A DNA stretch of 64,000 bases from an uncultured Methanomicrobiales archaeon (GCA_963758915.1 CAVWXH010000003.1:377906-441905), one strand, 5' to 3'. Counted from the first letter of the stretch, positions 14,460-42,417 are shown. Numbers and translations: made by a program. The notes: generated from the sequence alone by a model not told the origin.

Positions 14460-15281
14460 TCAGAGTAGCCTTGCCCCTGACTGGTAGGTCATGGTCTTGG
14501 TGAATGAATTGATGTACCCATTTGCTGTGGATTTTTCTTCGCCCGAGAGATCTGACGCCTTTGTCAGGCTGCTGCCACTTCCACCCTGCAGATGCAGTTT
14601 CATGTACGCTGCGACAAGCCCGTAACCCGGAATAGTCCCGCTTGCGGTATTAACGCCGTGAGCATTGATGCTGTAGGCTAATGCCACCGGTATGTCCTGG
14701 GTTGCAACGACTGTCCGGCTGGATGCCTGGGTTGAGAGCGAGATAATGTTACTGTCAACGTGGCTCCCGGCCTGCGCAATATTACAGTATGCAGGGAGTG
14801 TGCTGGTGCTGGACGGTCCGAACGGACAGAGGAACTGGCCCGCAGCTGATGTCGGCATGCCTACCGTATTAATAAGCAAGCTCTCATCAGAGACCATGTT
14901 TCCGCCATTAAGCCCCTCAAATGTTATCTGACGTAATGATTCGACATTACTCTGGGCGATGTTCTTGTTCCCGGTATCGAGGCTGAAGTCCTTTACATAC
15001 ACGGTGTGCCCGTTCATCGCATTAGTGTTTTCAGAGTATACGGTGGTCTGGACAACTTCACTGTCGGATAACGGGGGGTTGTCCTGCATTGATCCGCTGC
15101 TGGAAGTCCATGCAAGATCAACTACGTTACTCGCAGACCCAACGACATCGATATACGTGGTCGTTGTGATACCCTGGATTTCAGGTGTCTGGTTCACGCC
15201 ATCTGCTGATACGCTGATGCTGAGCGCTACGAGCACCAGGAATACAGATAGAATCCAAATTATTCCTTTTCCAATTTCCAT
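14460..15281 (-). CDS. Secreted MspA/sheath-protein-like paralog lacking the variable insert
   Basis: Signal peptide; PEIQ, DTGNK, GGNMVSDE, LCPF...LPAYCNI, C-terminal FTKTMTYQSGARLL shared with the 21.7-28 kb paralogs. Confidence 0.75.
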   Translation of the reverse strand: MEIGKGIIWILSVFLVLVALSISVSADGVNQTPEIQGITTTTYIDVVGSASNVVDLAWTSSSGSMQDNPPLSDSEVVQTTVYSENTNAMNGHTVYVKDFSLDTGNKNIAQSNVESLRQITFEGLNGGNMVSDESLLINTVGMPTSAAGQFLCPFGPSSTSTLPAYCNIAQAGSHVDSNIISLSTQASSRTVVATQDIPVALAYSINAHGVNTASGTIPGYGLVAAYMKLHLQGGSGSSLTKASDLSGEEKSTANGYINSFTKTMTYQSGARLL

Positions 15282-21543: not shown

Positions 21544-21637
21544 CCAATGGACACAATTTCTGATTTTCTAAATAATCAAATTACCCGGACACCCTTGTAA
21601 GGTCTTGGATTGTTGCGATTTGATGATTGCATAATAA

Positions 21638-21726
21638 CAGATATATTTATTTGATCAATATAACTCAAAGGCAGATTATCGGGGGGTACTTTAGAGCATC
21701 CTCCTATATCTAACGGAGTGAGTGAT
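21638..21726 (+). promoter_or_regulatory. Conserved msp leader: TATA, hairpin and SD (copy A)
   Basis: ATATATTTAT; GGGGGGTAC...GCATCCTCC at 21681-21704; CGGAGTGA before TTG. Confidence 0.6.
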
Positions 21727-22816
21727 TTGAAGCTTAGTAAATTAGGGGTTATTACGCTCTTATTATTCGGAATGGTCATTGCATTGACCGGTATCGTGTG
21801 CGCAGATCAGCCGGTCCCGGCAGTACCGGAAACACAAACTCTTGTCGACGGTAACTACTGCGGATGTTGTCGGACTCGCCATGGAGACTGATGCGGGGGC
21901 ATGGACGTTGACGAATGATCCCTGGGTCACGGTATACCATACACTGTCCACCCGGCTGGGTCACGAAACACCTGATGCTTAGCTAATGCAGATCGACGAT
22001 TATAATGCCGGAGGATTAATCGCGGCTAGGCGGAAGGCTCATCAATGAGGTATTCAAATTATTATTCCATCAATCGCTGCTAAACGTTGCAACAGTTGCA
22101 TGATCCAGACTCGTATACATGGGGGGATTTTGTCTCTAATCTTGTAGGACTGGGAGTCGACCCGACTTATTTACGGTGAAGGCATCCACACAGGCGCCCT
22201 CGACCCCGGGCAGGTCCAGTACACCACCGCCTATGACGCAGATATCGTCGCACAGGCAGGACACACCGTATTCACAAAAAGCATGAACATCGACACCCGG
22301 AACAAGGTCATTTCCCAGTCCAACCTGGATGCAAAGACCGGATTAACCTTTGCTGCAACCGCTGACGGGGGAAATGTGGTCGGTTCAGAGAACATCATGA
22401 TCGACGGTGCAGGCATACTACCACCGCAGCAAGTGACCGGATGCTCTGTCCGTTCTCAGCCTACCCCGTCGATATAATTCCGGCATACTGTAACATCGTC
22501 CAGGCTGGCAGCAAGTACGACCTGACGATTGGATCGGTGACAACCAATGCGAACGACCCGGTTCGTCGGCACTGATGCAACCAACCCGGTTGTCCTGAAC
22601 TATGATATCAGTGTCAAACCATACGGCACGTCACAGGGACAGATCCTGGCAAGCGGCTCGGCAATGGCTTACATCAAAGCACACATCCAGGAAGCCCGGG
22701 TAAACGGAACAGCAAAGGCTGAAGACATGGTATACAATGAGCAGTCAAGTGCACAGGGTACCATCACCGCCTTCACCAAGGTGATCGCGTACCAGTCAGG
22801 CAAGTCATTGCTCTGA
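21727..22816 (+). pseudogene. MspA/sheath-like paralog A (multiple frameshifts)
   Basis: LKLSKLGVITLLLFGMV..CADQPVPAVPETQ; GIHTGALDPGQVQYTT; ends YQSGKSLL*; indels concentrated in the variable insert. Confidence 0.75.
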
Positions 22817-22924
22817 TTTATACTCTCAAAAAATACTTTTTTTTAGCAGATTCTTTAAGGAGAGAACAAGATAAGGTACCATGTTAAAAGCAGGTATTGT
22901 TGCGATACAACAATTCCGATAAAA

Positions 22925-23006
22925 GATACTTTTATTATCCGACAACTAAAAGGCAGATTATTTGGGGGGTACTTAATGCATCCTCCTGTTATACGGAGTG
23001 AACGAT
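22925..23006 (+). promoter_or_regulatory. Conserved msp leader (copy B)
   Basis: TTTTATT; GGGGGGTAC-TTAAT-GCATCCTCC at 22964-22986; CGGAGTGA before ATG 23007. Confidence 0.55.
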
Positions 23007-23861
23007 ATGAAGCATAGTAAATTTGGGGTTATTACGCTCTTATTATTCGGAATGGTCATTGTATTGACCGGTATCGTGTGCGCAGATCAGCCAGTCCCGG
23101 CTAGTTCCGGAAACACAGGTGCTAGCGACGGTAACAACTGCGGATGTTGTCGGACTCGCCATGGAGACTGATGCAGGGGATGGACGATGACGAACAGCGG
23201 GGAAATATGATACCGTGAGTGGAACAGCGGCCTGTGTTAGAAATTTTAACGTGATGAAAGGCAAGTACTCGGCGAAGTTAATTGCACTCGTCAACTCGAC
23301 CGGAATTATGAGTAGTCTTGCAGTGCCAAATTGATGCTGAATCAGGAGTTTAGGATTGAAGACAAGCAGGTTATTCAAGTGCAGAGGTCTGACCAAATGA
23401 TGCATTAGACTATAGCAAAGGGATCGCAATGAGGCATCAGTATGCGAAGTCCACTATACAACCGCATATGATGCAAATATAGTTGCACAGGGTGGACATA
23501 CTGATTACAAGAGATGAAATCGAACCGGAACAAGGTGATTTCACAGTCCAACCTGATGCAAAGACGCTTAACCTTCGCTGCAACTGCTGACGGGGTAATG
23601 TGTCGGATCAGAAAACCTGATGATTGACGGTGCAGGTAATCACACCAGCATCAGAAGATGCTCTGTCCATTTAGTAGCCGTGATGTATTCTGTATTGAAA
23701 TGTAGGAAGAGATGATGAATGTTAGTAAAATGAAATGAAGTTATAGTTCTGATGAAAATGGTCTGAATAATATAGTGTAAAATACGACTTACAAAATGAA
23801 GGTGAATGGATATAAAGAAATAGAAGGTTATAAAACAGTCTACAAGCAATCACTCCTGTGA
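23007..23861 (+). pseudogene. MspA/sheath-like paralog B, heavily garbled
   Basis: Intact N-terminus MKHSKFGVITLLLFGMV..ADQPVP; recognisable YTTAYDANIVAQGGH and ENLMIDGAG; ends CAATCACTCCTGTGA like the E stop context. Confidence 0.65.
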
Positions 23862-24043
23862 GAAAAACACCTGCAATTCTATTTTTTAACGATTCAATCA
23901 AAAGGAGAAATGAATACCCGGCACCCTTAGTATTACGAAAAGGATCCTAAAAACCTTACATTGCCCCTAAAAAGAGACGGTAAGTTAAGGCGAATAGCCT
24001 CCTTTATTTGTTTATCCGTTATTAGACAGGGTTGTCACAAAGG

Positions 24044-24457
24044 ATGATGGAAGAGATAGTAATTGCACCATGCGGGATGAACTGTGCACTATGCATGGCA
24101 TATCTTCGGGATAACAATAAATGTCCTGGTTGCAGGGAAGAGAGTCTGAATAAATCAAAAAGTCGCTCAAATTGTATGATTAAAAACTGTGACGAATTAA
24201 AAAATAACAATTATAACTACTGTTTTTCATGTGCACAATTTCCCTGTGCCAGAATAAAACATCTGGATAAACGATATCGCACAAAATACCTGATGAGTAT
24301 GATTGAAAATCTTGAACATATCAATAAATCGGGCATTCGGGATTTTATCGAAAATGAACAGGTAAGATGGACTTGTTCTGAATGTGGAGGCACTATCTGC
24401 GTGCATCAAGGGTATTGCTATTCCTGCGGTACAAAGAAACAGGTGCTCGGTTTATAG
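24044..24457 (+). CDS. DUF3795-type Cys-rich protein
   Basis: IAPCGMNCALC, CPGC, CMIKNC, CFSCAQFPC, CSECGG...CYSC. Confidence 0.88.
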   Translation: MMEEIVIAPCGMNCALCMAYLRDNNKCPGCREESLNKSKSRSNCMIKNCDELKNNNYNYCFSCAQFPCARIKHLDKRYRTKYLMSMIENLEHINKSGIRDFIENEQVRWTCSECGGTICVHQGYCYSCGTKKQVLGL

Positions 24458-24515
24458 GGTAAATAACCTGGTTGAACCAATGAAAAAGACCACGGGAGAG
24501 GGCTGGAAACATCAC

Positions 24516-24884
24516 ATGAAACGATATTCTCATTGTTGTCTGCTGGTAATCCTGCTGATGGTTACTATCACGGTGTCTGCGGGTTGCATCTCGAACACAT
24601 CGTCGTATGATTTTACCATGAAACGGGTTGTTGCGGTAGAAAAAGGCGGGTACTTTGAAGATATTCCCATGAGGCTTGATTTAAAAGGGAATAATATTGC
24701 CTGTGTATACGAAAAAAATCAGCCATCCGGTTCGGAAAAGTGTGGGACCTATACCATTACGGGTAACGAATTACGCTTTGACATACCAGGTAACCAGATG
24801 TACGGAGGGTATATTCTTGAAAACGGAGATATTTCGTTACTGGACTGGAGTACGCAGGAATATATCGTCATGAAAAAAGTCTGA
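24516..24884 (+). CDS. Lipoprotein with a small beta domain
   Basis: MKRYSHCCLLVILLMVTITVSAGC lipobox; GTYTITGNELRF. Confidence 0.78.
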   Translation: MKRYSHCCLLVILLMVTITVSAGCISNTSSYDFTMKRVVAVEKGGYFEDIPMRLDLKGNNIACVYEKNQPSGSEKCGTYTITGNELRFDIPGNQMYGGYILENGDISLLDWSTQEYIVMKKV

Positions 24885-24954
24885 AAAACAGCCAGGGATT
24901 ATCCGGCTGTATGGTTAGGTCTTCCGGGATTGTTTTGATACAGTTGCATAAATA

Positions 24955-25043
24955 GAGATATATTTATTAATCAATATGACCCAAAAGTCAAATTACTGGG
25001 GGCTGTTTTTTGGGTATCCTCCACATCTGACGGAGTGAGTGAT
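24955..25043 (+). promoter_or_regulatory. Conserved msp leader (copy C)
   Basis: ATATATTTATT; TGGGGG...TCCTCCA at 24997-25023; CGGAGTGA before TTG 25044. Confidence 0.55.
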
Positions 25044-25927
25044 TTGAAGATTAGTAAATTCGGGGTTATTGCGCTCTTACTATTCGGAATGGTCATTGTA
25101 TTGACTGGTATCGTGTGCGCAGATCAGCCGGTCCCGGCAGTCCCGGAGACACAAACGCTTTCGACGACAACGACTGCGGATGTTGTCGGGATTACCATGG
25201 AAACCGATGCCGGGGCATGGACGACCACATCCAGCGGGCAGGCAATGTACATACTCACAATGCCCGCAGGTGGAGCACCTGCCCCCTTCACTCAGGGTAT
25301 GTTAAACCAGTTAGTGGCTGGTGGAGGTCACTATATACTTTATCCCGGACTGACGCCCCCATGGGTAACAAGCGTATCCATTCCCCAATCTCTGTTAAAT
25401 CAACAGATTGTTGATAATCCTTCGGGAACAACATGGCAGGATCTGGTTGAACTCTATGAAGTTATTGGATGGAGTGAGGCCTTCGCCAAAGGTGGATTAC
25501 ATACCGGAGCATTGGACCCGGGCGAAGTCCGTTACACCACCGCCTATGATGCAAATATCGTCGCACAGGCAGGACACACCGTATTGACAAAAAGTATGAA
25601 CATCGACACCCGGAACAAGGTCATTGCGCAGTCCAACCTGAATGCAAAGACCGGACTTAACCTTTGCTGCAACCGCTGACGGCGGTAACGTCGTTGGTTC
25701 AGAAAACCTCATGATCGACGGTGCAGGTAACTGGACTACACCAGCATCAGATCGTATGCTCTGTCCGTTCTCCGCATACCCGGTCGATGTAATTCCGGCG
25801 TACTGCAACATCGTCCAGGCGGCAGCAAGTATGACCTGACCATGGATCAGTGACCACCAATGCAAACGATCGGTTCGTCGGGAGTGAGCAACCAACCCGT
25901 GTCCTGAAGTATGCGATCAATGTCAAG
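25044..25927 (+). pseudogene. MspA/sheath-like paralog C, interrupted at its 3' end by an inverted segment
   Basis: Open for about 205 codons with a complete variable insert; frameshifts near 25660 and 25820; homology stops at ...INVK (25927). Confidence 0.8.
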
Positions 25928-26212
25928 TTACGTTGCAGATCGAGCGGAACCTGGAAATAAAAGGGGGTCATTGCTGACCTCATGGCTCCTTTCCCTGGGC
26001 CCGGTCAAGGGGCACTGTACTATGTTGATGAGGACAGGGTTATAGGATGGGACCCGATCACCCTCCAAAAATAGTGTATTTTTGAGTATTCAGAGGAGCG
26101 ATTTCCCTGACGGGTACGCGATCACCTTGGTGAAGGCGGTTATGGTTCCCTGTGCACTTGACTGCTCGTAATAGACTAAGTCCTCATCCTTTGCCGTTCC
26201 GTTCACCCGGGG
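25928..26212 (-). other. Inverted msp 3' end plus its downstream region
   Basis: Reverse complement reads RVNGTAKDEDLVYYEQSSAQGTITAFTKVIAYPSGKSLL*, then about 165 nt homologous but not identical to 28032-28194. Confidence 0.85.
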
Positions 26213-26213
26213 T

Positions 26214-26696
26214 TGCAAAGACCGGATTAACCTTTGCTGCAACCTCCGATGGGGGCAATGTCGTGGGATCAGAGAACATCATGATTGACGGTGCAGGAAC
26301 AAACACAACTGCATCCGATCGGATGCTCTGTCGTTTTCAGCATACCCAGTCGATATAATTCCTGCATACTGTAACATCGTCCAGGCTGGAAGTAAGTACG
26401 ACCTGACGATTGGATCGGTGACAACCAATGCGAACACCCGGTTCGTCGGCACTGATGCAACCAACCCGGTTGTCCTGAACTACGATATAAGCGTCAAGCC
26501 ATACGGCACGTCACAGGGACAGATCCTGGCAAGCGGCTCTGCAATGGCATACCTCAAAGCACACATCCAGGAAGCCCGTGGAAACGGAACGGCAAAGGCT
26601 GAAGACCTGGTATACAATGAGCAGTCAAGTGCACAGGGTACGATAACGGCCTTCACCAAGGTGATTGCGTACCAGTCAGGGAAGGCACTGCTCTGA
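26214..26696 (+). pseudogene. MspA/sheath-like paralog D, 5'-truncated C-terminal half
   Basis: AKTGLTFAATSDGGNVVGSEN...YQSGKALL*; near-identical to the 3' part of copy A. Confidence 0.8.
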
Positions 26697-26803
26697 TTTT
26701 ATACTCTCAAAAAATACTTTTTTCGCGATTTTTTAAAGGGGAAACGAAATCCGGCCCCATTCTTGAAAGTCAGGTATTGTAACGAAACCGCGATCCTGAT
26801 AGA

Positions 26804-26888
26804 GAAACCTTTATTGTCCGACACTCCCAAAAGCCAAATTATTTGGGGGGTACTGAATGCATCCTCCAATTCTAACGGAGTGAGTGAT
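26804..26888 (+). promoter_or_regulatory. Conserved msp leader (copy E)
   Basis: TTTATT; TTGGGGGGTAC-TGAAT-GCATCCTCCAA at 26843-26869; CGGAGTGA before TTG 26889. Confidence 0.6.
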
Positions 26889-28031
26889 TTGAAGCTTGGT
26901 AAACTAGGGGTTATTACGCTCTTATTATTCGGAATGGTCATTGGATTAACAGGTATCATGTGCGCAGACCAGCCGGTACCGGCAGTCCCGGAGACACAAA
27001 CGCTAGGGACAGTAACTACTGCGGATGTTGTCGGAATTGCCATGGAAACTGATGCTGGGGCATGGACATTGACGAACAGCGGTGAAACGATGTATACCGT
27101 GACTGCGACTTCGACTAGTGATGTGGTAAAAATCCTTAATGATGATGAAATAACTCAGCTCCTCGCTGCGGGAGGAAGTGTTATCCTCGTACCGGGATCC
27201 GATCGCACCGCTAGTATTTCAGTGCCAGAATCGCTTTTAAACCAGCTTTTGGTTGGTAGTAGTTGGCAGACTTGGGCATATATTCTTGCCATAGCAGTCA
27301 GTGATGGAGGTTATGTATTGACAACTGCCCCGGGTGGGATCCATAACGGGGTCCTGAGTCCCGCCCAGATCCAGTACACCACCGCGTATGATGCCAATAT
27401 TGTGGCACAAGCGGGGCACACAGTCCTTACTAAGAGCATGAACATCAACACGGGTAACAAGGTGCTCACCCAGTCCAACCTGAAAGCCCAGACTGGATTA
27501 ACCTATATTGCTACTTCCGATGGAGGTAATGTAGTCGGTTCAGAAAACCTGATGATTGACGGTGCGGGAAATACAACCAAGGCATCTGATCGGATGCTCT
27601 GTCCATTTAGTTCCCAGCCGGTTGATGTCATCCCTGCCTATTGCAATATTATCCAGACCGGCAATACATACGACCTGACAGTCGGATCTGTTACCTCAAC
27701 GATGAGCGAGCGTTTTGTCAGCTCCGATGCCACCAACCCGGTGCAGCTTGACCAGGTATTCAATGTTAAGCCATACGGTACCACCGAAAGGGCAATTCCG
27801 GCGATGGGTGCAACATCTGTGTACATTAAAGCCCATTTCCAGGAAGCACGAAATTACAACAATATAACCGTGGTCGTGCTTCCTGATGGTAGTCCTGGAG
27901 CAACTTTTGCAATCCCCGGCACACCGCTTAAGAGCGAAGACCTCACCTACTCTGAAACATCAAGTGCACAGGGTACCATTCTGGCCTTTACCAAGGTTAT
28001 AGCGTACCAGTCTGGGAAATCACTCCTCTGA
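26889..28031 (+). CDS. MspA/sheath-like paralog E (intact, 380 aa)
   Basis: Signal peptide; variable insert; LCPF...IPAYCNI Cys pair; QEAR; FTKVIAYQSGKSLL*; pattern matches my recollection of Methanospirillum sheath proteins. Confidence 0.82.
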   Translation: MKLGKLGVITLLLFGMVIGLTGIMCADQPVPAVPETQTLGTVTTADVVGIAMETDAGAWTLTNSGETMYTVTATSTSDVVKILNDDEITQLLAAGGSVILVPGSDRTASISVPESLLNQLLVGSSWQTWAYILAIAVSDGGYVLTTAPGGIHNGVLSPAQIQYTTAYDANIVAQAGHTVLTKSMNINTGNKVLTQSNLKAQTGLTYIATSDGGNVVGSENLMIDGAGNTTKASDRMLCPFSSQPVDVIPAYCNIIQTGNTYDLTVGSVTSTMSERFVSSDATNPVQLDQVFNVKPYGTTERAIPAMGATSVYIKAHFQEARNYNNITVVVLPDGSPGATFAIPGTPLKSEDLTYSETSSAQGTILAFTKVIAYQSGKSLL

Positions 28032-28397
28032 ATCACTCAAGAATGCACTATTTTTTTTAGGGTGGCTTTGCTCCATCCTATAACCTTGTCCTCATCAACA
28101 TAGTACATGCCCCTTCACCGGGGCCAGGGAAAGGAGCCATGGGGTCAGCAATGACCCCCTTTTATTTTCAGGTTCCGCTGGATCTGCAACGTAATGATTG
28201 CATACTGGAATGAATTTTTTTACCACCAGAACAGATACACCGTAGTTCCCCGGTCATATCGGACTCGAAGGAAAGATCCTCTGCCAGGAGGCAAACTGTG
28301 CAGCCGCCTACCCGGTGCCGGAAAACGGCAATGCAGCCCGGGCATGTTCGTTCATTGACAAGGCATTTTTAAAGGGTCCAGGTGTAAACCTCCGTTG

Positions 28398-28614
28398 AGT
28401 GTCTGGGGATAGTTAAACCCAACCGGGGTCGCCACAGCGGCGGGCCATGAGCCCCGGGAGCGTTGGAAAATTAAGGAATAGTCCGAAACCGGTAAGAGCA
28501 TAGAAGAGGATTTCCCATGTAAATGCCTGAACGGACACCAATATGAAGAGATTTTGAATGTGGCATTTTCATTGTTCGGGTGTGGAAGTCCCGTTCATGT
28601 GTGTTTCTACAGAA
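28398..28614 (+). mobile_element. Partial MITE copy (right part)
   Basis: CAACCGGGGTCGCCACAGCGGCGGGCCATGAGCCCCGGGAGCGT core shared with 29722-29765; ends GTGTTTCTACAGAA like 42402-42415. Confidence 0.65.
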
Positions 28615-29296: not shown

Positions 29297-29560
29297 GTGG
29301 TCATCACCTGTTTACAGGTATACTTAGATTCCTTCTTAACTGCTGCGATGGTTTGGAGAACCTGGTGCAATCACCTGCCTGTGGCATGATACAGAGATAA
29401 AAAGAATGAGGATGGTATTCTGAACCCGGAATGTCTTTTTTCACTTCTCTGGTTCATACTGAAAATCTGTCGGGGTATGAACCACCGGAGGGTGAAAACC
29501 CTTATCCCTGGTGTTTTTTCTTCAAGATATTCGAAATAATTGCGGTTTTCCCAATATTTC

Positions 29561-29823
29561 GGCTTTGTTGAAACTTTTTCGGTGTCATAACAAATAAGAG
29601 GGAAATACGAAGACAGGAGGGGTTTCACCCCCTCCCTGCCCGACCCCCATTGAGATATTCTTCGGGCAGGGTTTCCCGAAGGCTCATTAAAATTCAGAGT
29701 ATTGGGGGAGGGTCTCTATCTCAACCGGGGTCGCCAAAGCGGCGGGCCATGAGCCCCGGGAGCGTGATGAAATTATGGAATTCCCAATCTTCAAAATAGA
29801 TTTGAGAGGATTTGTACAGAGCC
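29561..29823 (+). mobile_element. 263-bp MITE with terminal inverted repeats and an 8-bp target-site duplication
   Basis: Ends GGCTTTGTTGAAA / TTTGTACAGAGCC; AATATTTC at both 29553-29560 and 29824-29831; no ORF. Confidence 0.85.
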
Positions 29824-31290: not shown

Positions 31291-32725
31291 ATGTCAGCGA
31301 AACAATTTCTCCTCATCATCATTATCGGAATTGCCATGATCCTTGCTGCGGGATGCACCCAGCCTGCTGTTCAGCATCAAAAGGCACAGGAAACCCCACT
31401 TGTGACGGTGACCGTTCAGGTCCCGCCGCTCACCGGCACTGATGCGGCGATATCCCGGAAACTCGATGCCTATATGACAGCGCTTACCGACGCCGGGAGG
31501 TTCAGCGGGACGGTACTGGTGGCACGGGGCGATACCGTGATCCTCTCGAAAGGGTACGGCATGGCGAACTACGAGTTCTCCATCCCCAATACACCCGGGA
31601 CCGTATTCCCTGTCGGCTCGAATACCAAGCAGCTTACCGCGGCCGCCATTATGAAGCTGCAGGAGCAGGGGAAGCTGAATGTCACCGACCCGGTCACGAT
31701 GGTATATCCCCAATGCCACGAAATGGGAGGAGATCCGGATCTATCACCTGCTGAACCACACCGCGGGGATCCCGTCTGACGGGGCGTTCTCCCTCACCGA
31801 CCGGGCAGATCTTACACTCCCCGAAACAATGGAACGGATAACCGCCCTGCCCCTCGCCTTTGAACCGGGATCGGGTTACACGTATTCCAATAACGGGTAT
31901 ATCGCGCTGAGTTACATCATTGAGCAGGCTTCGGGCATGTCGTACGATGAGTACCTGAAAACGGACATCTTCCGGCCAATCGGCATGAACAGCACCGGGC
32001 AGGACAATGCCCGGGATGTCTTTCCCAGCCGTGCGTCCGGGTACACCACCATGAACGGAAAACAGGTCCACTACGACCTCCAGAACATCCATAACTCCTG
32101 GGGCGCCGGGTCCATCCATTCCACGACCGGAGACATGTTCCGGTGGGTGCGTGCCTTCCATACGCCGGGAACGATCCTTTCTCCGCAGTCAACCGCTGCC
32201 ATGGTGGAACACCATTACGGGATTGAGAGCGGGAAATTGAAGAACCGCACCTTCATCGGCTTTAGCGGGCGTAACTTCGGGTTCATCTCGCAGACACTGT
32301 ATTATCCTGACGAGGACGTGAGCATCATGTTCCTGACAAACCATGACAGGACCCCGGTGCTGACCCTGGTAAACGACCTCCCGGCGATAGTCTTTAATGG
32401 GACGTATTCCCAGCCGCAGAAGATCAACCGGAGCGTGGTGCCGCTGAACGCAGGAGCACTCGTGGAATACACCGGGACGTATGCACCGGCATGGGAGAAA
32501 TCATGGACGATCACCGTATATAGTGAAGGCAACCGCCTGTTTTACGATGCGGTCATGCCCGGCGATAAGAAGGTCGAACTCTTCTCCGAGGGCAATGATA
32601 CGTTCTTCGTGACACCGGAGTCGGACGATGCATACATATTCACCCGTAACGCAGCCGGAAAGGTCAACGGACTGAAGATGTATACCATGGAAGGCTCGTA
32701 TGACGAGTCAGAAAAGGTGTCGTGA
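31291..32725 (+). CDS. Serine hydrolase (AmpC/beta-lactamase fold) lipoprotein (frameshift near 31700)
   Basis: Lipobox AAGC; SNTK (SxxK), LLNHTAG, YSN. Confidence 0.9.
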
Positions 32726-42064: not shown

Positions 42065-42417
42065 GGCTTTGTTGAAACCCTTCGGTGTCATAAAAAATCA
42101 GAGGGAAATACGAAGACAGGAGGGGGTTTCACCCCATCCCTGCCCCACCCCCATTAAGATATTCTTCGGGCAGGGTTTCCCGAAGGTTCATTAAATTCAG
42201 AGTATTTTTGGGTAGTCTCTATCCCAACCAGGATCACCAAGGCGGCGGGGCGGAGCCCCGGGAGCGTGACGAAATTTTGGAATTCCCAATCTATAAGATA
42301 GATTTGAGAGGATTTCCCATGAAAATATCAAAACGGACCCCAATATATAGAATTTTGAACAAGTTATTTTCATAAACCGGGTGCGAACTTCCCGTTCATG
42401 AGTGTTTCTACAGAGCG
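42065..42417 (+). mobile_element. About 350-bp MITE (long variant)
   Basis: Ends GGCTTTGTTGAAAC / GTTTCTACAGAGC; first ~250 nt closely match 29561-29812; no TSD visible. Confidence 0.8.

What the first reader, a model, noticed from the sequence alone, without database searches (positions are those of the whole stretch)
21638..28031. Array of sheath-protein (MspA/SH)-like genes with a constant framework and a hypervariable inserted domain: candidate surface-diversification locus
Seen in sequence: five same-strand copies (A 21727, B 23007, C 25044, fragment D 26214, E 26889). Where present, the signal peptide plus ADQPVPAVPETQ...METDAGAW and the C-terminal region (YTTAYDANIVAQ...LCPF...PAYCNI...YQSGKSLL) are highly similar. 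They flank an ~85-aa segment that keeps only a skeleton (QL.A.GG...S.P.SLLNQ...TW). Only E is intact. Established knowledge, from memory: the Methanospirillum sheath protein has an amyloid-like beta core with an inserted outward-facing cap, and a similar Cys pair and YxSG terminus. Inference: interchangeable caps on a constant amyloid core, with partial copies serving as recombination donors, would give a variable cell sheath, for example for virus evasion. I know of no such variation system described in methanogens.
Basis: partly seen in the sequence, partly recalled or inferred. Interest (0 to 1): 0.82.

Follow-up and report, generated by a model that had tools for sequence, protein, structure and literature searches.

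The report
Sheath-protein gene cluster, mostly decayed
This is a tandem cluster of archaeal cell-sheath protein genes in an uncultured methanogen, with one intact gene and four broken copies; it belongs to a family already described, and its variable outer "cap" domains are reshuffled by recombination over evolutionary time, not by any demonstrated switching system.

Summary
Window 21718-28031 holds five same-strand copies of one gene family plus an inverted 3' fragment, and only copy E (26880-28031) is intact as assembled.

The family is the archaeal sheath protein SH. E aligns over its full length with Mhun_2271, the major sheath protein of Methanospirillum hungatei (hhalign probability 99.7%, E 4e-27). 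The Cys-x13-Cys pair is aligned. A confident AlphaFold2 model (pLDDT 94) shows about 12 long core strands and an inserted alpha/beta cap.

Multi-copy, clustered SH genes with diverse caps were already described by Medvedeva et al. (ISME J 2024), so the kind is known.

- A, B and C keep their own promoter-like regions and signal peptides.
- The caps of A and B carry stop codons.
- Identity to E 3' of the cap is only 64-70%.
- E's cap is the same in contigs of three public runs.

Recombination between paralogs is real on evolutionary time. Between E and its counterpart in a sister genome, dS is 0.19 in the cap (genome baseline 0.10-0.16), 0.70 in the N-terminal part, and saturated in the core.

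Caveat: three of the frameshifts are absent from other samples' contigs, so some of the decay may be strain-specific or an assembly error.

The parts
21544..21717 (+). Promoter-like upstream region of copy A. It contains an AT-rich TATA-like box, a conserved GGATTGTTGCGAT block and a CCTCC...GGAG pair before the start codon.
   Evidence: Alignment A3 of the four upstream regions: 69% mean column identity, with conserved blocks shared by A, B, C and E.
21718..22816 (+). Copy A: a full-length SH pseudogene. It has at least 3 frameshifts (near 21840, 22417 and 22555) and 3 in-frame stops in the cap. It lacks the second insert.
   Evidence: The +1 base at 22555 is absent from contigs of runs X2 and X3.
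22998..23696 (+). Copy B: a heavily decayed SH pseudogene, truncated near residue 251.
   Evidence: Contigs of X2 and X3 join across it (22804 to 23850, and 23024 to 24005).
23700..25034 (+). Low-GC (0.40-0.42) insert that interrupts the array. It holds a DUF3795 Cys-rich ORF (24032-24457) and an ORF with a signal-peptide-like N-terminus and no family match (24384-24884).
   Evidence: Composition, ORFs, Pfam PF12675 at E 5e-9.
25035..25930 (+). Copy C: the signal peptide, its own cap and the start of the core are open for 207 residues. After that it is frameshifted (25656 and further on) and it is truncated near residue 300.
   Evidence: The +1 base at 25656 is absent from an X3 contig. Its cap region 25158-25384 is present in an RNA-library contig with 4 differences in 227 nt.
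26090..26242 (-). Inverted remnant of an SH C-terminus (about the last 50 residues, ending ...YPSGKSLL).
   Evidence: 81.8% amino-acid identity to E residues 351-383, on the minus strand.
26215..26696 (+). Fragment D: the 3' half of an SH gene (residues 203-383) with one frameshift at 26331. It is 90-92% identical in DNA to the same part of A.
   Evidence: An X1 contig carries the missing C at 26331. Protein P0035 from another assembly matches D at 98% and is full length there, with its own cap.
26697..26879 (+). Promoter-like upstream region of E.
26880..28031 (+). Copy E: the intact SH-family sheath protein gene. It encodes 383 aa from GTG 26880, or 380 aa from TTG 26889, which has a better-spaced GGAG.
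26880..26966 (+). Sec-type signal peptide of E (residues 1-29, likely cleaved after ...MCA).
Evidence: No signal-peptide predictor was available.
27075..27335 (+). Cap domain of E (residues about 66-152), with secondary-structure order beta-alpha-beta-beta-alpha-beta.
   Evidence: AF2 model m7b730ccb913e. It aligns with the Mhun_2271 cap region, which contains T86, S144 and N157.
27600..27644 (+). Linker carrying the Cys pair, C241 and C255 (LCPF...PAYCNI).
   Evidence: Both Cys are invariant in A1. They align with C257 and C271 of Mhun_2271.
27852..27929 (+). Second variable insert (residues about 325-350), predicted as a beta-hairpin. It is absent from A, D and Mhun_2271.
14460..15281 (-). 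Intact capless paralog of the same family (273-290 aa). The N-terminal strands join the core directly.
   Evidence: HMM positions 4-68 and 157-379 within one ORF.
28420..28479 (.). Partial copy of a roughly 250-bp genome-wide repeat, just downstream of E. A full copy lies at 29560-29823.
   Evidence: 129 BLAST hits in the genome. Depth spike and loose ends at 28418-28463.

Best explanation
The locus is a tandem cluster of paralogous genes for the archaeal sheath protein SH, the family of Mhun_2271 of Methanospirillum hungatei. It lies in an uncultured member of the Methanoregulaceae.

What E probably encodes (inferred from homology, not shown here):
- A secreted subunit whose 12-strand, two-sheet amyloid-like core polymerises into the rings of the cell sheath.
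- A Cys-x13-Cys linker that forms the disulfide bonds between rings.
- An inserted alpha/beta cap of about 85 residues that sits on the outer face.

How the cluster arose (shown here by sequence comparison):
- Whole-gene tandem duplication, promoters included.
- Divergence or replacement of the caps.
- Segmental gene conversion confined to the conserved framework on either side of the cap.
- Rearrangement: an inserted low-GC segment, an inverted fragment, and truncations.
- Decay, which leaves one intact gene (E) and four broken copies in this assembly.

This is birth-and-death evolution of a surface-protein family with paralog recombination. It is not a programmed cassette-switching system.
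For: Family membership:
- The A1 profile finds 452 cluster representatives at E<=1e-3 among 1.84 billion proteins. One is P0243, at E 1.6e-32 over its full length.
- P0243 is 74% identical to P0290, which its source names 'Mhun_2271 [Methanospirillum hungatei JF-1]'.
- E against P0290: BLASTP 23% identity, E 1e-19, end to end. hhalign of A1 against P0290: probability 99.7%, E 4e-27, 351 columns.
- P0290 has D43, T86, S144, N157, C257, C271 and K363, and weighs 40.5 kDa. These are the residues and mass published for SH/MspA.
- The AF2 model built on 150 sequences has pLDDT 94.2 and pTM 0.86. It shows long strands adding up to about 12, plus a cap.
- Distribution: the family is found in 22 of 43 sampled genomes of the organism's own family, but in 0 of 15 genomes of one genus and 1 of 157 genomes of the other five families. 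This fits the published pattern of presence in Methanolinea and absence from Methanoregula.

Decayed whole genes, not cassettes: the upstream regions of A, B, C and E are conserved, and the copies carry stops and frameshifts.

Intact arrays exist in relatives: L022 has 6 intact tandem genes whose frameworks are 73-90% identical and whose caps are 12-47% identical.

Recombination:
Three syntenic flanking genes give a baseline of 0.10-0.16.
- DNA identity peaks at 95-98% inside the cap and falls to 48-78% in the core.
- Among 97 capped homologs, the 35 pairs with core identity of 90% or more have a median cap identity of 41% and a minimum of 20%.

Fast turnover: the syntenic locus in the sister genome (L031, flanks 94-95.5% identical) holds three A/D-like copies and no E-like gene.
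Against: - No experiment or proteome shows that this organism has a sheath or that E is part of one.
They rest on homology with M. hungatei.
- Foldseek against the PDB and against viral models gave nothing at E<=1e-3. This is expected, because SH has no PDB entry.
- The A2 profile found no convincing match in 157 sampled genomes of the other five families of the order. The two weak hits I inspected were spurious. The link to Methanospirillum therefore rests on the protein-library search and the pairwise and profile alignments, not on the genome scan.
- The decay may be overstated. Three frameshifts (A at 22555, C at 25656, D at 26331) are absent from short-read contigs of other samples. The window also carries +1 indels, relative to the sister genome, in two ordinary flanking genes (30961 and 31699).
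Confidence: 0.8

Rival explanations
1. Programmed surface variation. E is an expression site, and A to D are silent donors whose caps are copied into E by gene conversion, as in pilE/pilS or vlsE/vls, giving switchable sheath surfaces that evade viruses.
For: - One intact gene sits beside partial copies on the same strand, with a conserved 5' block (84.5-91.8% DNA identity).
- Cap and framework are demonstrably reassorted on evolutionary time.
- Metagenome contigs contain joints between paralogs at homologous core positions: 25729 to 22434 and 25727 to 27633, both in X1 at depth 2-6.
Against: - A, B and C have their own promoter-like regions, start codons and signal peptides.
- The caps of A and B carry stop codons.
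- On the 3' side of the cap, identity to E is only 64-70%. The longest exact match with E is 39 nt, and it lies in the signal peptide.
- E's cap is the same (98% identity or more) in contigs of X1, X2 and X14, that is 3 of the 4 runs laid, and no foreign cap is joined to E's flanks.
- No recombinase or reverse transcriptase was found among the 20 neighbouring ORFs scanned.
- In the E/L021 mosaic it is the framework that was exchanged, not the cap.
- The paralog joints come from short k-mer-based contigs at low depth and may be graph artefacts or other paralogs.
Confidence: 0.07
2. The assembly overstates the decay. In the living population several of these copies (at least C, and the parent gene of D) are intact, and the cluster is a working multi-gene array. 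Its products co-assemble into rings with mixed caps, as proposed for Methanothrix and Methanospirillum.
For: - All three frameshifts for which one search lists an indel at the site read without the frameshift in contigs of other samples: A at 22555 in X2 and X3, C at 25656 in X3, D at 26331 in X1.
- The window has +1 indels in two ordinary flanking genes relative to the sister genome.
- C's cap is present in an RNA-library contig.
- Protein P0035 from another assembly is a full-length version of D.
- Relatives hold intact arrays.
- The mixed-ring model is published.
Against: - A and B carry in-frame stop codons made by substitutions, which indel errors cannot explain.
- B, C and D are truncated by rearrangements whatever the indels do.
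- About 9.5 kb of long ORFs elsewhere in the window are uninterrupted, so a high uniform indel error rate is unlikely.
- The other samples hold related strains, not necessarily this one.
Confidence: 0.1
3. The family is SH-like in sequence but does not build a sheath here. It would be, for example, a secreted beta-rich adhesin or an accessory envelope protein, or a protein of viral origin.
For: - No evidence of a sheath exists for this uncultured lineage.
- Viruses of sheathed archaea encode SH-like proteins, according to PMC11576556 (abstract and sections read).
- Only 4 of about 18 family loci in this genome are intact.
Against: - Homology to the mass-spectrometry and cryoET-identified sheath protein runs the full length and conserves the Cys pair.
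- There are no virus-like genes among the neighbours scanned.
- A pattern scan of viral contigs found no relative. That scan used only two peptide patterns, so it is a weak negative.
- The family is found chromosome-wide in 22 of 43 related genomes.
Confidence: 0.03

Closest known systems
SH (sheath) protein Mhun_2271 / WP_011449234.1 of Methanospirillum hungatei JF-1 (called MspA by Christensen et al. 2018, PMC6242892; SH by Wang et al. 2023, PMC10593813)
   Same: - Full-length homology: hhalign probability 99.7%, BLASTP E 1e-19.
- An N-terminal signal peptide followed by A-D-x-x-P...PE-x-Q.
- A Cys-x13-Cys pair at the aligned position.
- A C-terminal Y-x-S-G motif.
- Similar length: 383 aa against 377 aa.
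- A variable domain inserted after the first strand pair.
   Different: - Only 23% identity.
- E's cap is shorter (about 85 residues against about 110) and is predicted as beta-alpha-beta-beta-alpha-beta. The M. hungatei cap is published as six helices plus one sheet.
- E has a second insert of about 25 residues near the C-terminus that Mhun_2271 lacks.
Multi-copy SH gene clusters of Methanolinea and Methanospirillum (Medvedeva, Borrel and Gribaldo, ISME J 2024, PMC11576556)
   Same: - Many copies per genome: 3-31 published, about 18 loci here.
- Genes clustered in tandem, with diverse caps on a common core.
- Presence in part of the Methanoregulaceae and absence from a sister genus.
   Different: - The main text of the paper does not mention pseudogenes, recombination or gene conversion: 0 hits for six such terms. 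Its supplementary tables could not be opened.
- Here most copies are decayed: 4 of about 18 loci are intact.
- Here cap and framework have demonstrably different ancestries.
- The published Methanolinea cap is a 5-strand beta-sheet, whereas E's cap has 4 strands and 2 helices.
Gene-conversion antigenic variation loci (pilE/pilS of Neisseria, vlsE/vls of Borrelia). This comparison is recalled from general knowledge; no call tested these systems.
   Same: One intact gene lies next to partial same-strand copies that share conserved blocks flanking a variable segment.
   Different: - The partial copies here keep their promoters and signal peptides.
- Several of their variable segments are not translatable.
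- The flanking identity is low.
- No within-population mosaics at the intact gene were seen.

Membership tests
Archaeal sheath protein SH (Mhun_2271 type) | Detectable sequence homology to the experimentally identified M. hungatei sheath protein | tested here: met
   - P0243 at E 1.6e-32.
- P0243 is 74% identical to Mhun_2271.
- BLASTP E 1e-19.
- hhalign probability 99.7%.
- the identity of P0290 was checked against the published residues.
Archaeal sheath protein SH (Mhun_2271 type) | N-terminal Sec signal peptide | tested here: met
   - By inspection there are Lys residues, then a hydrophobic stretch, then ...MCA followed by DQP.
- The segment aligns with the Mhun_2271 signal peptide.
- No dedicated predictor was available.
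Archaeal sheath protein SH (Mhun_2271 type) | Core of two beta-sheets of six antiparallel strands each (six beta-arches) | tested here: inconclusive
   - The AF2 model (pLDDT 94.2) has long strand runs that add up to about 12 core strands.
- No SH structure is in the PDB for comparison.
Archaeal sheath protein SH (Mhun_2271 type) | Cap domain inserted after the first strand pair, on the outer face | tested here: met
   - The position is met. E residues 66-152 align with the Mhun_2271 region that holds T86, S144 and N157, published as exposed to the cell exterior.
- The outward orientation of E's own cap is inferred, not measured.
Archaeal sheath protein SH (Mhun_2271 type) | Two cysteines in or near the linker that make the inter-ring disulfides | tested here: met
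   C241 and C255 are invariant in 41 of 41 sequences. They align with C257 and C271 at the same spacing of 14.
Archaeal sheath protein SH (Mhun_2271 type) | Polymerises into rings or hoops of a tubular sheath | not testable with these tools
   This needs microscopy or proteomics of the organism, or in vitro assembly.
Silent-cassette gene-conversion variation system (pilE/pilS-like) | Donor copies lack a promoter and 5' end, and there is a single expression site | tested here: not met
   A, B and C have conserved promoter-like regions, start codons and signal peptides. Only D lacks a 5' end.
Silent-cassette gene-conversion variation system (pilE/pilS-like) | The variable segments of the donors remain translatable | tested here: not met
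   A's cap has 3 in-frame stops and B's cap has many. Only C's cap is open.
Silent-cassette gene-conversion variation system (pilE/pilS-like) | High-identity blocks on both sides of the variable segment | tested here: not met
   The 5' side is 84.5-91.8% identical across pairs (85.6-90.3% to E). The 3' side is 64-70% identical to E. The longest exact match with E is 39 nt.
Silent-cassette gene-conversion variation system (pilE/pilS-like) | Mosaic variants at the expressed gene within a population | tested here: inconclusive
   - Contigs of 3 of the 4 runs laid (X1, X2, X14) carry E's cap at 98% identity or more; X3 covers only E's core and 3' end.
- The only joint that involves E (25727 to 27633) has depth 2.1 and a 23-nt side.
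- Contigs drop rare variants, and no raw long reads were available.
Diversity-generating retroelement | A reverse transcriptase with a template repeat near the variable region | tested here: not met
   No RT domain was found in the 20 ORFs scanned between 9.5 and 41 kb. The copies differ by far more than adenine-specific changes.

The most novel reading that the evidence does not exclude
SH arrays in this lineage work as a population-level repertoire of surface types. Segmental gene conversion, bounded by the unalignable cap, reassorts caps and frameworks. Decayed copies persist as sequence reservoirs. Which copy is intact differs between strains: E here, while C-like and D-like copies appear unbroken in other samples. 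Co-existing strains would therefore display different sheath exteriors, under pressure from viruses that bind the sheath or mimic it with their own SH-like proteins.
Probability: 0.2. Interest if true: 0.6.

Novelty: new member of a known kind. Interest (0 to 1): 0.35.

Why it matters
The sheath is the outermost layer of several abundant methanogens, so it is the first surface that viruses and syntrophic partners meet.

This locus adds an uncultured Methanoregulaceae lineage and a new cap type to the SH family. It also gives direct sequence evidence that caps and frameworks have separate histories: synonymous divergence differs at least four-fold within one gene pair. The published survey does not discuss this in its main text.

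The locus does not reveal a new kind of variation machinery.

It is also a caution for annotation. The family has no Pfam or NCBIfam model, and every copy is labelled 'hypothetical'.

Tried and rejected
- **Pfam and NCBIfam on E:** 0 families in each.
- **PDB by sequence:** the single sequence gave only a chance ribosomal hit at E 1, and the A1 profile gave 0 matches.
- **First AF2 run, 41 sequences with the signal peptide:** pLDDT 51, core unusable. It was replaced by the 150-sequence run.
- **Foldseek against PDB and BFVD:** 0 matches at E<=1e-3 in each. There were only weak hints (E>0.2) that the cap is ferredoxin/ACT-like.
- **Complex prediction with two copies of mature E:** verdict 'no answer' (scores 0.30, 0.33, 0.01; mark 0.42). 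It says nothing either way.
- **ESM Atlas:** no usable hit.
- **The listing of cluster members on 10 distant hits:** only one useful name, 'Methanoregulaceae archaeon'.
- **Genome scan of the order at E<=1:** the weak hits in other families were spurious. The two inspected were a VWA-domain protein and a lipoprotein signal.
- **Viral contigs:** With A1, 61 pattern matches were found and 0 were confirmed. Only two peptide patterns were used, so this does not show absence.
- **Earlier findings of this scan:** nothing to show.
- **Rfam on the window:** 0 matches.
- **Concerted evolution of the 5' ends within a genome:** not clear. E is 88% identical to a copy in the sister genome and 85-90% identical to its own neighbours.
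- **Max-chi-square breakpoint test:** significant, with 0 of 1000 permutations reaching the observed value. It is partly trivial, because the caps of the 'parent' sequences are not homologous, so I rely on the dS contrast instead.
- **Parts of the array without contig cover in the four runs** are not interpreted.

Full report
**1. What is in the sequence**

Searching the window with E and aligning the copies shows five same-strand members of one family:
- A, 21718-22816
- B, 22998-23696
- C, 25035-25902
- D, 26215-26696
- E, 26880-28031

There is also an inverted C-terminal remnant at 26090-26242(-) and a distant capless paralog at 14460-15281(-).

E is the only uninterrupted gene. The three-frame translations show the state of the others:
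- A spans the whole gene but needs at least 3 frame changes, and it has 3 in-frame stops in its cap.
- B is full of stops and ends near residue 251, where a 1.3-kb low-GC segment begins. That segment carries a DUF3795 gene.
- C is open through the signal peptide, the cap and the first core strands (207 residues). It then shifts frame and stops near residue 300.
- D is a 3' half with a single frameshift.

DNA identity between copies:
- 84.5-91.8% in the first 195 nt
- 37-44% in the cap
- 64-70% between E and the others in the core
- 83-90% among A, C and D in the core

The longest exact match between any two copies is 47 nt.

**2. What family it is**

Pfam, NCBIfam and PDB sequence searches are empty. 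The protein has 365 relatives at E<=1e-3 among the 8000 candidates scored. All are unnamed or 'hypothetical', and the one taxon name given is Methanoregulaceae.

A scan of species-representative genomes returned 33 loci. Of these, 32 come from Methanomicrobiales or Methanoregulaceae MAGs. The other is a 2.8-kb contig binned as Bacteroidales.

The link to the known sheath protein runs as follows:
- A profile of 41 homologs, searched against 1.84 billion cluster representatives, gave 452 hits at E<=1e-3.
- One of them, P0243 (E 1.6e-32, aligned end to end), is 74% identical to P0290, which NCBI and UniRef name Mhun_2271 of Methanospirillum hungatei JF-1.
- P0290 has D43, T86, S144, N157, C257, C271 and K363, and a mass of 40.5 kDa. 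These are the residues and mass reported for the sheath protein by Wang et al. 2023 (sections read) and Christensen et al. 2018 (passages).
- E aligns directly with P0290 over its whole length: BLASTP 23% identity, E 1e-19; hhalign probability 99.7%, E 4e-27, 351 columns.
- The invariant Cys pair of the family (C241 and C255 in E) falls on C257 and C271 with the same spacing of 14. The C-terminal YQSG falls on YESG.
- E's variable segment falls on the M. hungatei cap, whose residues T86, S144 and N157 are published as exposed to the exterior.

The structure prediction:
- With 41 sequences AlphaFold2 failed on the core (pLDDT 51).
- With 150 sequences and the signal peptide removed it gave pLDDT 94.2 and pTM 0.86.
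- That model has long strands adding up to about twelve.
- Its cap, at mature residues 42-121, has the order beta-alpha-beta-beta-alpha-beta.
- A short helix and a loop carry the two cysteines.
- A second small hairpin insert lies at mature residues 299-317.
- I could not inspect coordinates, so the two-sheet packing and the outward orientation are inferred from homology.
- Foldseek found nothing. This is expected, because SH was only docked into EM maps and has no PDB entry.

**3. The family in this genome and its relatives**

The genome is a 2.38-Mb, 18-contig MAG, 94% complete. A six-frame HMM scan finds about 18 family loci on 9 contigs. Only 4 are single open frames:
- E
- a 396-aa capped gene on contig 5
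- two capless genes of 290 and 305 aa, one of which lies in the window at 14460-15281(-)

In the order-wide sample the family is found as follows:
- 22 of 43 genomes of the organism's own family
- 0 of 15 genomes of one genus within that family
- 1 of 157 genomes in the other five families

This matches the published statement that SH is present in Methanolinea and absent from Methanoregula. The same scan did not pick up Methanospirillum-type genes in other families. The weak hits I checked were spurious. I report this as a limit of that scan.

Relatives contain healthy versions of this kind of locus. L022 has six intact tandem genes whose frameworks are 73-90% identical in protein and whose caps are 12-47% identical.

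**4. Is it a switching system?**

The evidence is against it:
- The upstream 180 nt of A, B, C and E align with conserved blocks: a TATA-like AT box and a CCTCC...GGAG pair just before the start. The broken copies are therefore decayed whole genes.
- The caps of A and B are not translatable.
- Identity to E is low on the 3' side of the cap.
- None of the 20 neighbouring ORFs scanned encodes a recombinase, transposase or reverse transcriptase.
- In Logan contigs of four public runs from four studies, E's cap region is present at 98% identity or more in X1, X2 and the RNA-library run X14. In X14 it is a 237-nt contig with 0 differences. E's core is present in X3. No contig joins a different cap to E's flanks.
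- Contigs cannot show rare variants, so this is weak evidence, but it points the same way.

**5. Recombination does shape the family**

The closest relative genome carries an E-like gene at a different locus (L021). Along the gene, DNA identity to E is as follows:
- 77-88% in the first 180 nt
- 82-98% across the cap, reaching 95-98% in nt 361-480
- 48-78% in nt 541-1020
- 85% at the 3' end

Nei-Gojobori estimates are:
- N-terminal part: dS 0.70
- cap: dS 0.19
- core: saturated, pS 0.74
- C-terminal part: dS 0.56

Three syntenic flanking genes of the two genomes give a baseline dS of 0.10-0.16. The two caps are therefore about as old as the species split, while the frameworks around them are much older. 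One lineage has had its framework overwritten by a paralog.

The cap itself evolves under relaxed but purifying selection (dN/dS 0.45, against 0.14-0.16 in the framework).

Family-wide, 35 pairs among 97 capped homologs have cores at least 90% identical, yet their cap identity has a median of 41% and falls as low as 20%. The 97 caps fall into 76 single-linkage clusters at 50% identity.

The simplest reading is that gene conversion homogenises the alignable framework and stops at the unalignable cap. This produces new cap-framework combinations as a by-product.

**6. Turnover and data quality**

The truly syntenic locus in the sister genome (L031) has flanks 94-95.5% identical to the window. 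It holds three A/D-like copies, also broken but by different indels, and no E-like gene.

A protein from another assembly (P0035) matches D at 98% but is full length, with its own cap.

Metagenome contigs show joints that skip B (X2, X3) and one that joins 26211 to 28216 through 103 other letters (X1). All are at low depth.

The arrangement around D fits an old inversion followed by a deletion. The inverted C-terminal remnant abuts D's 5' break. This is an inference.

Three of the window's frameshifts are absent from other samples' contigs: A at 22555 in X2 and X3, C at 25656 in X3, and D at 26331 in X1. The window also has +1 indels, relative to L031, inside an MscS-type gene (30961) and a beta-lactamase-family gene (31699). 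Part of the apparent decay may therefore be strain-specific or an assembly error.

The stop codons in A and B and the truncations of B, C and D cannot be explained that way.

**7. Comparison with what is known**

Medvedeva, Borrel and Gribaldo (ISME J 2024; abstract and sections 5, 9, 10 and 12 read) already describe:
- SH homologs in Methanospirillum and Methanolinea at 3-31 copies per genome
- their arrangement in clusters
- diverse outward-facing caps
- the idea that rings mix subunits with different caps
- viruses that encode SH-like proteins

The kind of locus is therefore known.

Their main text contains none of the words pseudogene, recombination, gene conversion, receptor, variation or frameshift. 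Two full-text searches found no paper on gene conversion or antigenic variation of archaeal sheath proteins (listings only).

What this window adds:
- a further uncultured lineage
- a cap type not described in that text
- a strongly decayed array
- quantitative evidence that cap and framework have different histories

**8. Verdict**

This is a real feature and was correctly recognised as SH-like. It is a new member of a known kind. The proposed cassette-switching mechanism is unlikely (about 7%). A looser, population-level form of surface diversification remains possible (about 20%).

Noticed in passing
window 29560-29823, 42065-42316 and a partial copy at 28420-28479: A GC-rich repeat of about 250 bp, with internal inverted repeats, gives 129 BLAST hits across the genome. 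One partial copy lies right after E, another copy lies beside the SH cluster on contig 5, and one sits just upstream of the E-like gene in L021. In L031 it is in a different place relative to the same flanking genes, so it looks like a mobile MITE-like element that could mediate rearrangements. It has no Rfam match.
   Followed up: partly
window 30961 and 31699: There are single-base insertions, relative to the 95%-identical sister genome (L031), inside an MscS-type channel gene and a beta-lactamase-family gene. The second is split into ORFs 31291-31779 and 31679-32725. These are either real pseudogenes or assembly indels, and they bear on how far frameshifts in this assembly can be trusted.
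   Followed up: partly
window 14460-15281 (-): An intact capless member of the SH family (273-290 aa), in which the N-terminal strands join the core directly. Capless forms of 266-330 aa make up much of what the genome scans of relatives list. They may be the bulk structural subunit, with capped forms as accessories.
   Followed up: partly
window 21690-21720, 22970-23000, 25005-25037, 26850-26882: A conserved motif, GCATCCTCC, then 8-10 nt, then ACGGAGTGA, lies immediately upstream of every copy that has a 5' end. CCTCC can pair with the GGAG ribosome-binding site, which suggests a small 5'-UTR hairpin. It was not folded or tested.
   Followed up: no
window 23700-25034: A low-GC (0.40-0.42) segment between B and C carries a DUF3795 Cys-rich protein gene and a small ORF with a signal-peptide-like N-terminus. 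In contigs of two other samples it is joined directly to A's end or to B's start, so B is missing there.
   Followed up: partly
L052 (contig CAIYOZ010000065.1, 2793 bp): One family member sits on a short contig binned as 'uncultured Bacteroidales bacterium'. This is most likely a binning error and not a bacterial homolog.
   Followed up: no
E residues 230-236 (window about 27567-27590) and 328-330 (window about 27861-27869): The N-x-T sequons N-T-T (in the conserved G-A-G-N-x-T-x-A-S-D loop before the first Cys) and N-I-T (in the second insert) are candidate N-glycosylation sites. This is read from the sequence only.
   Followed up: no
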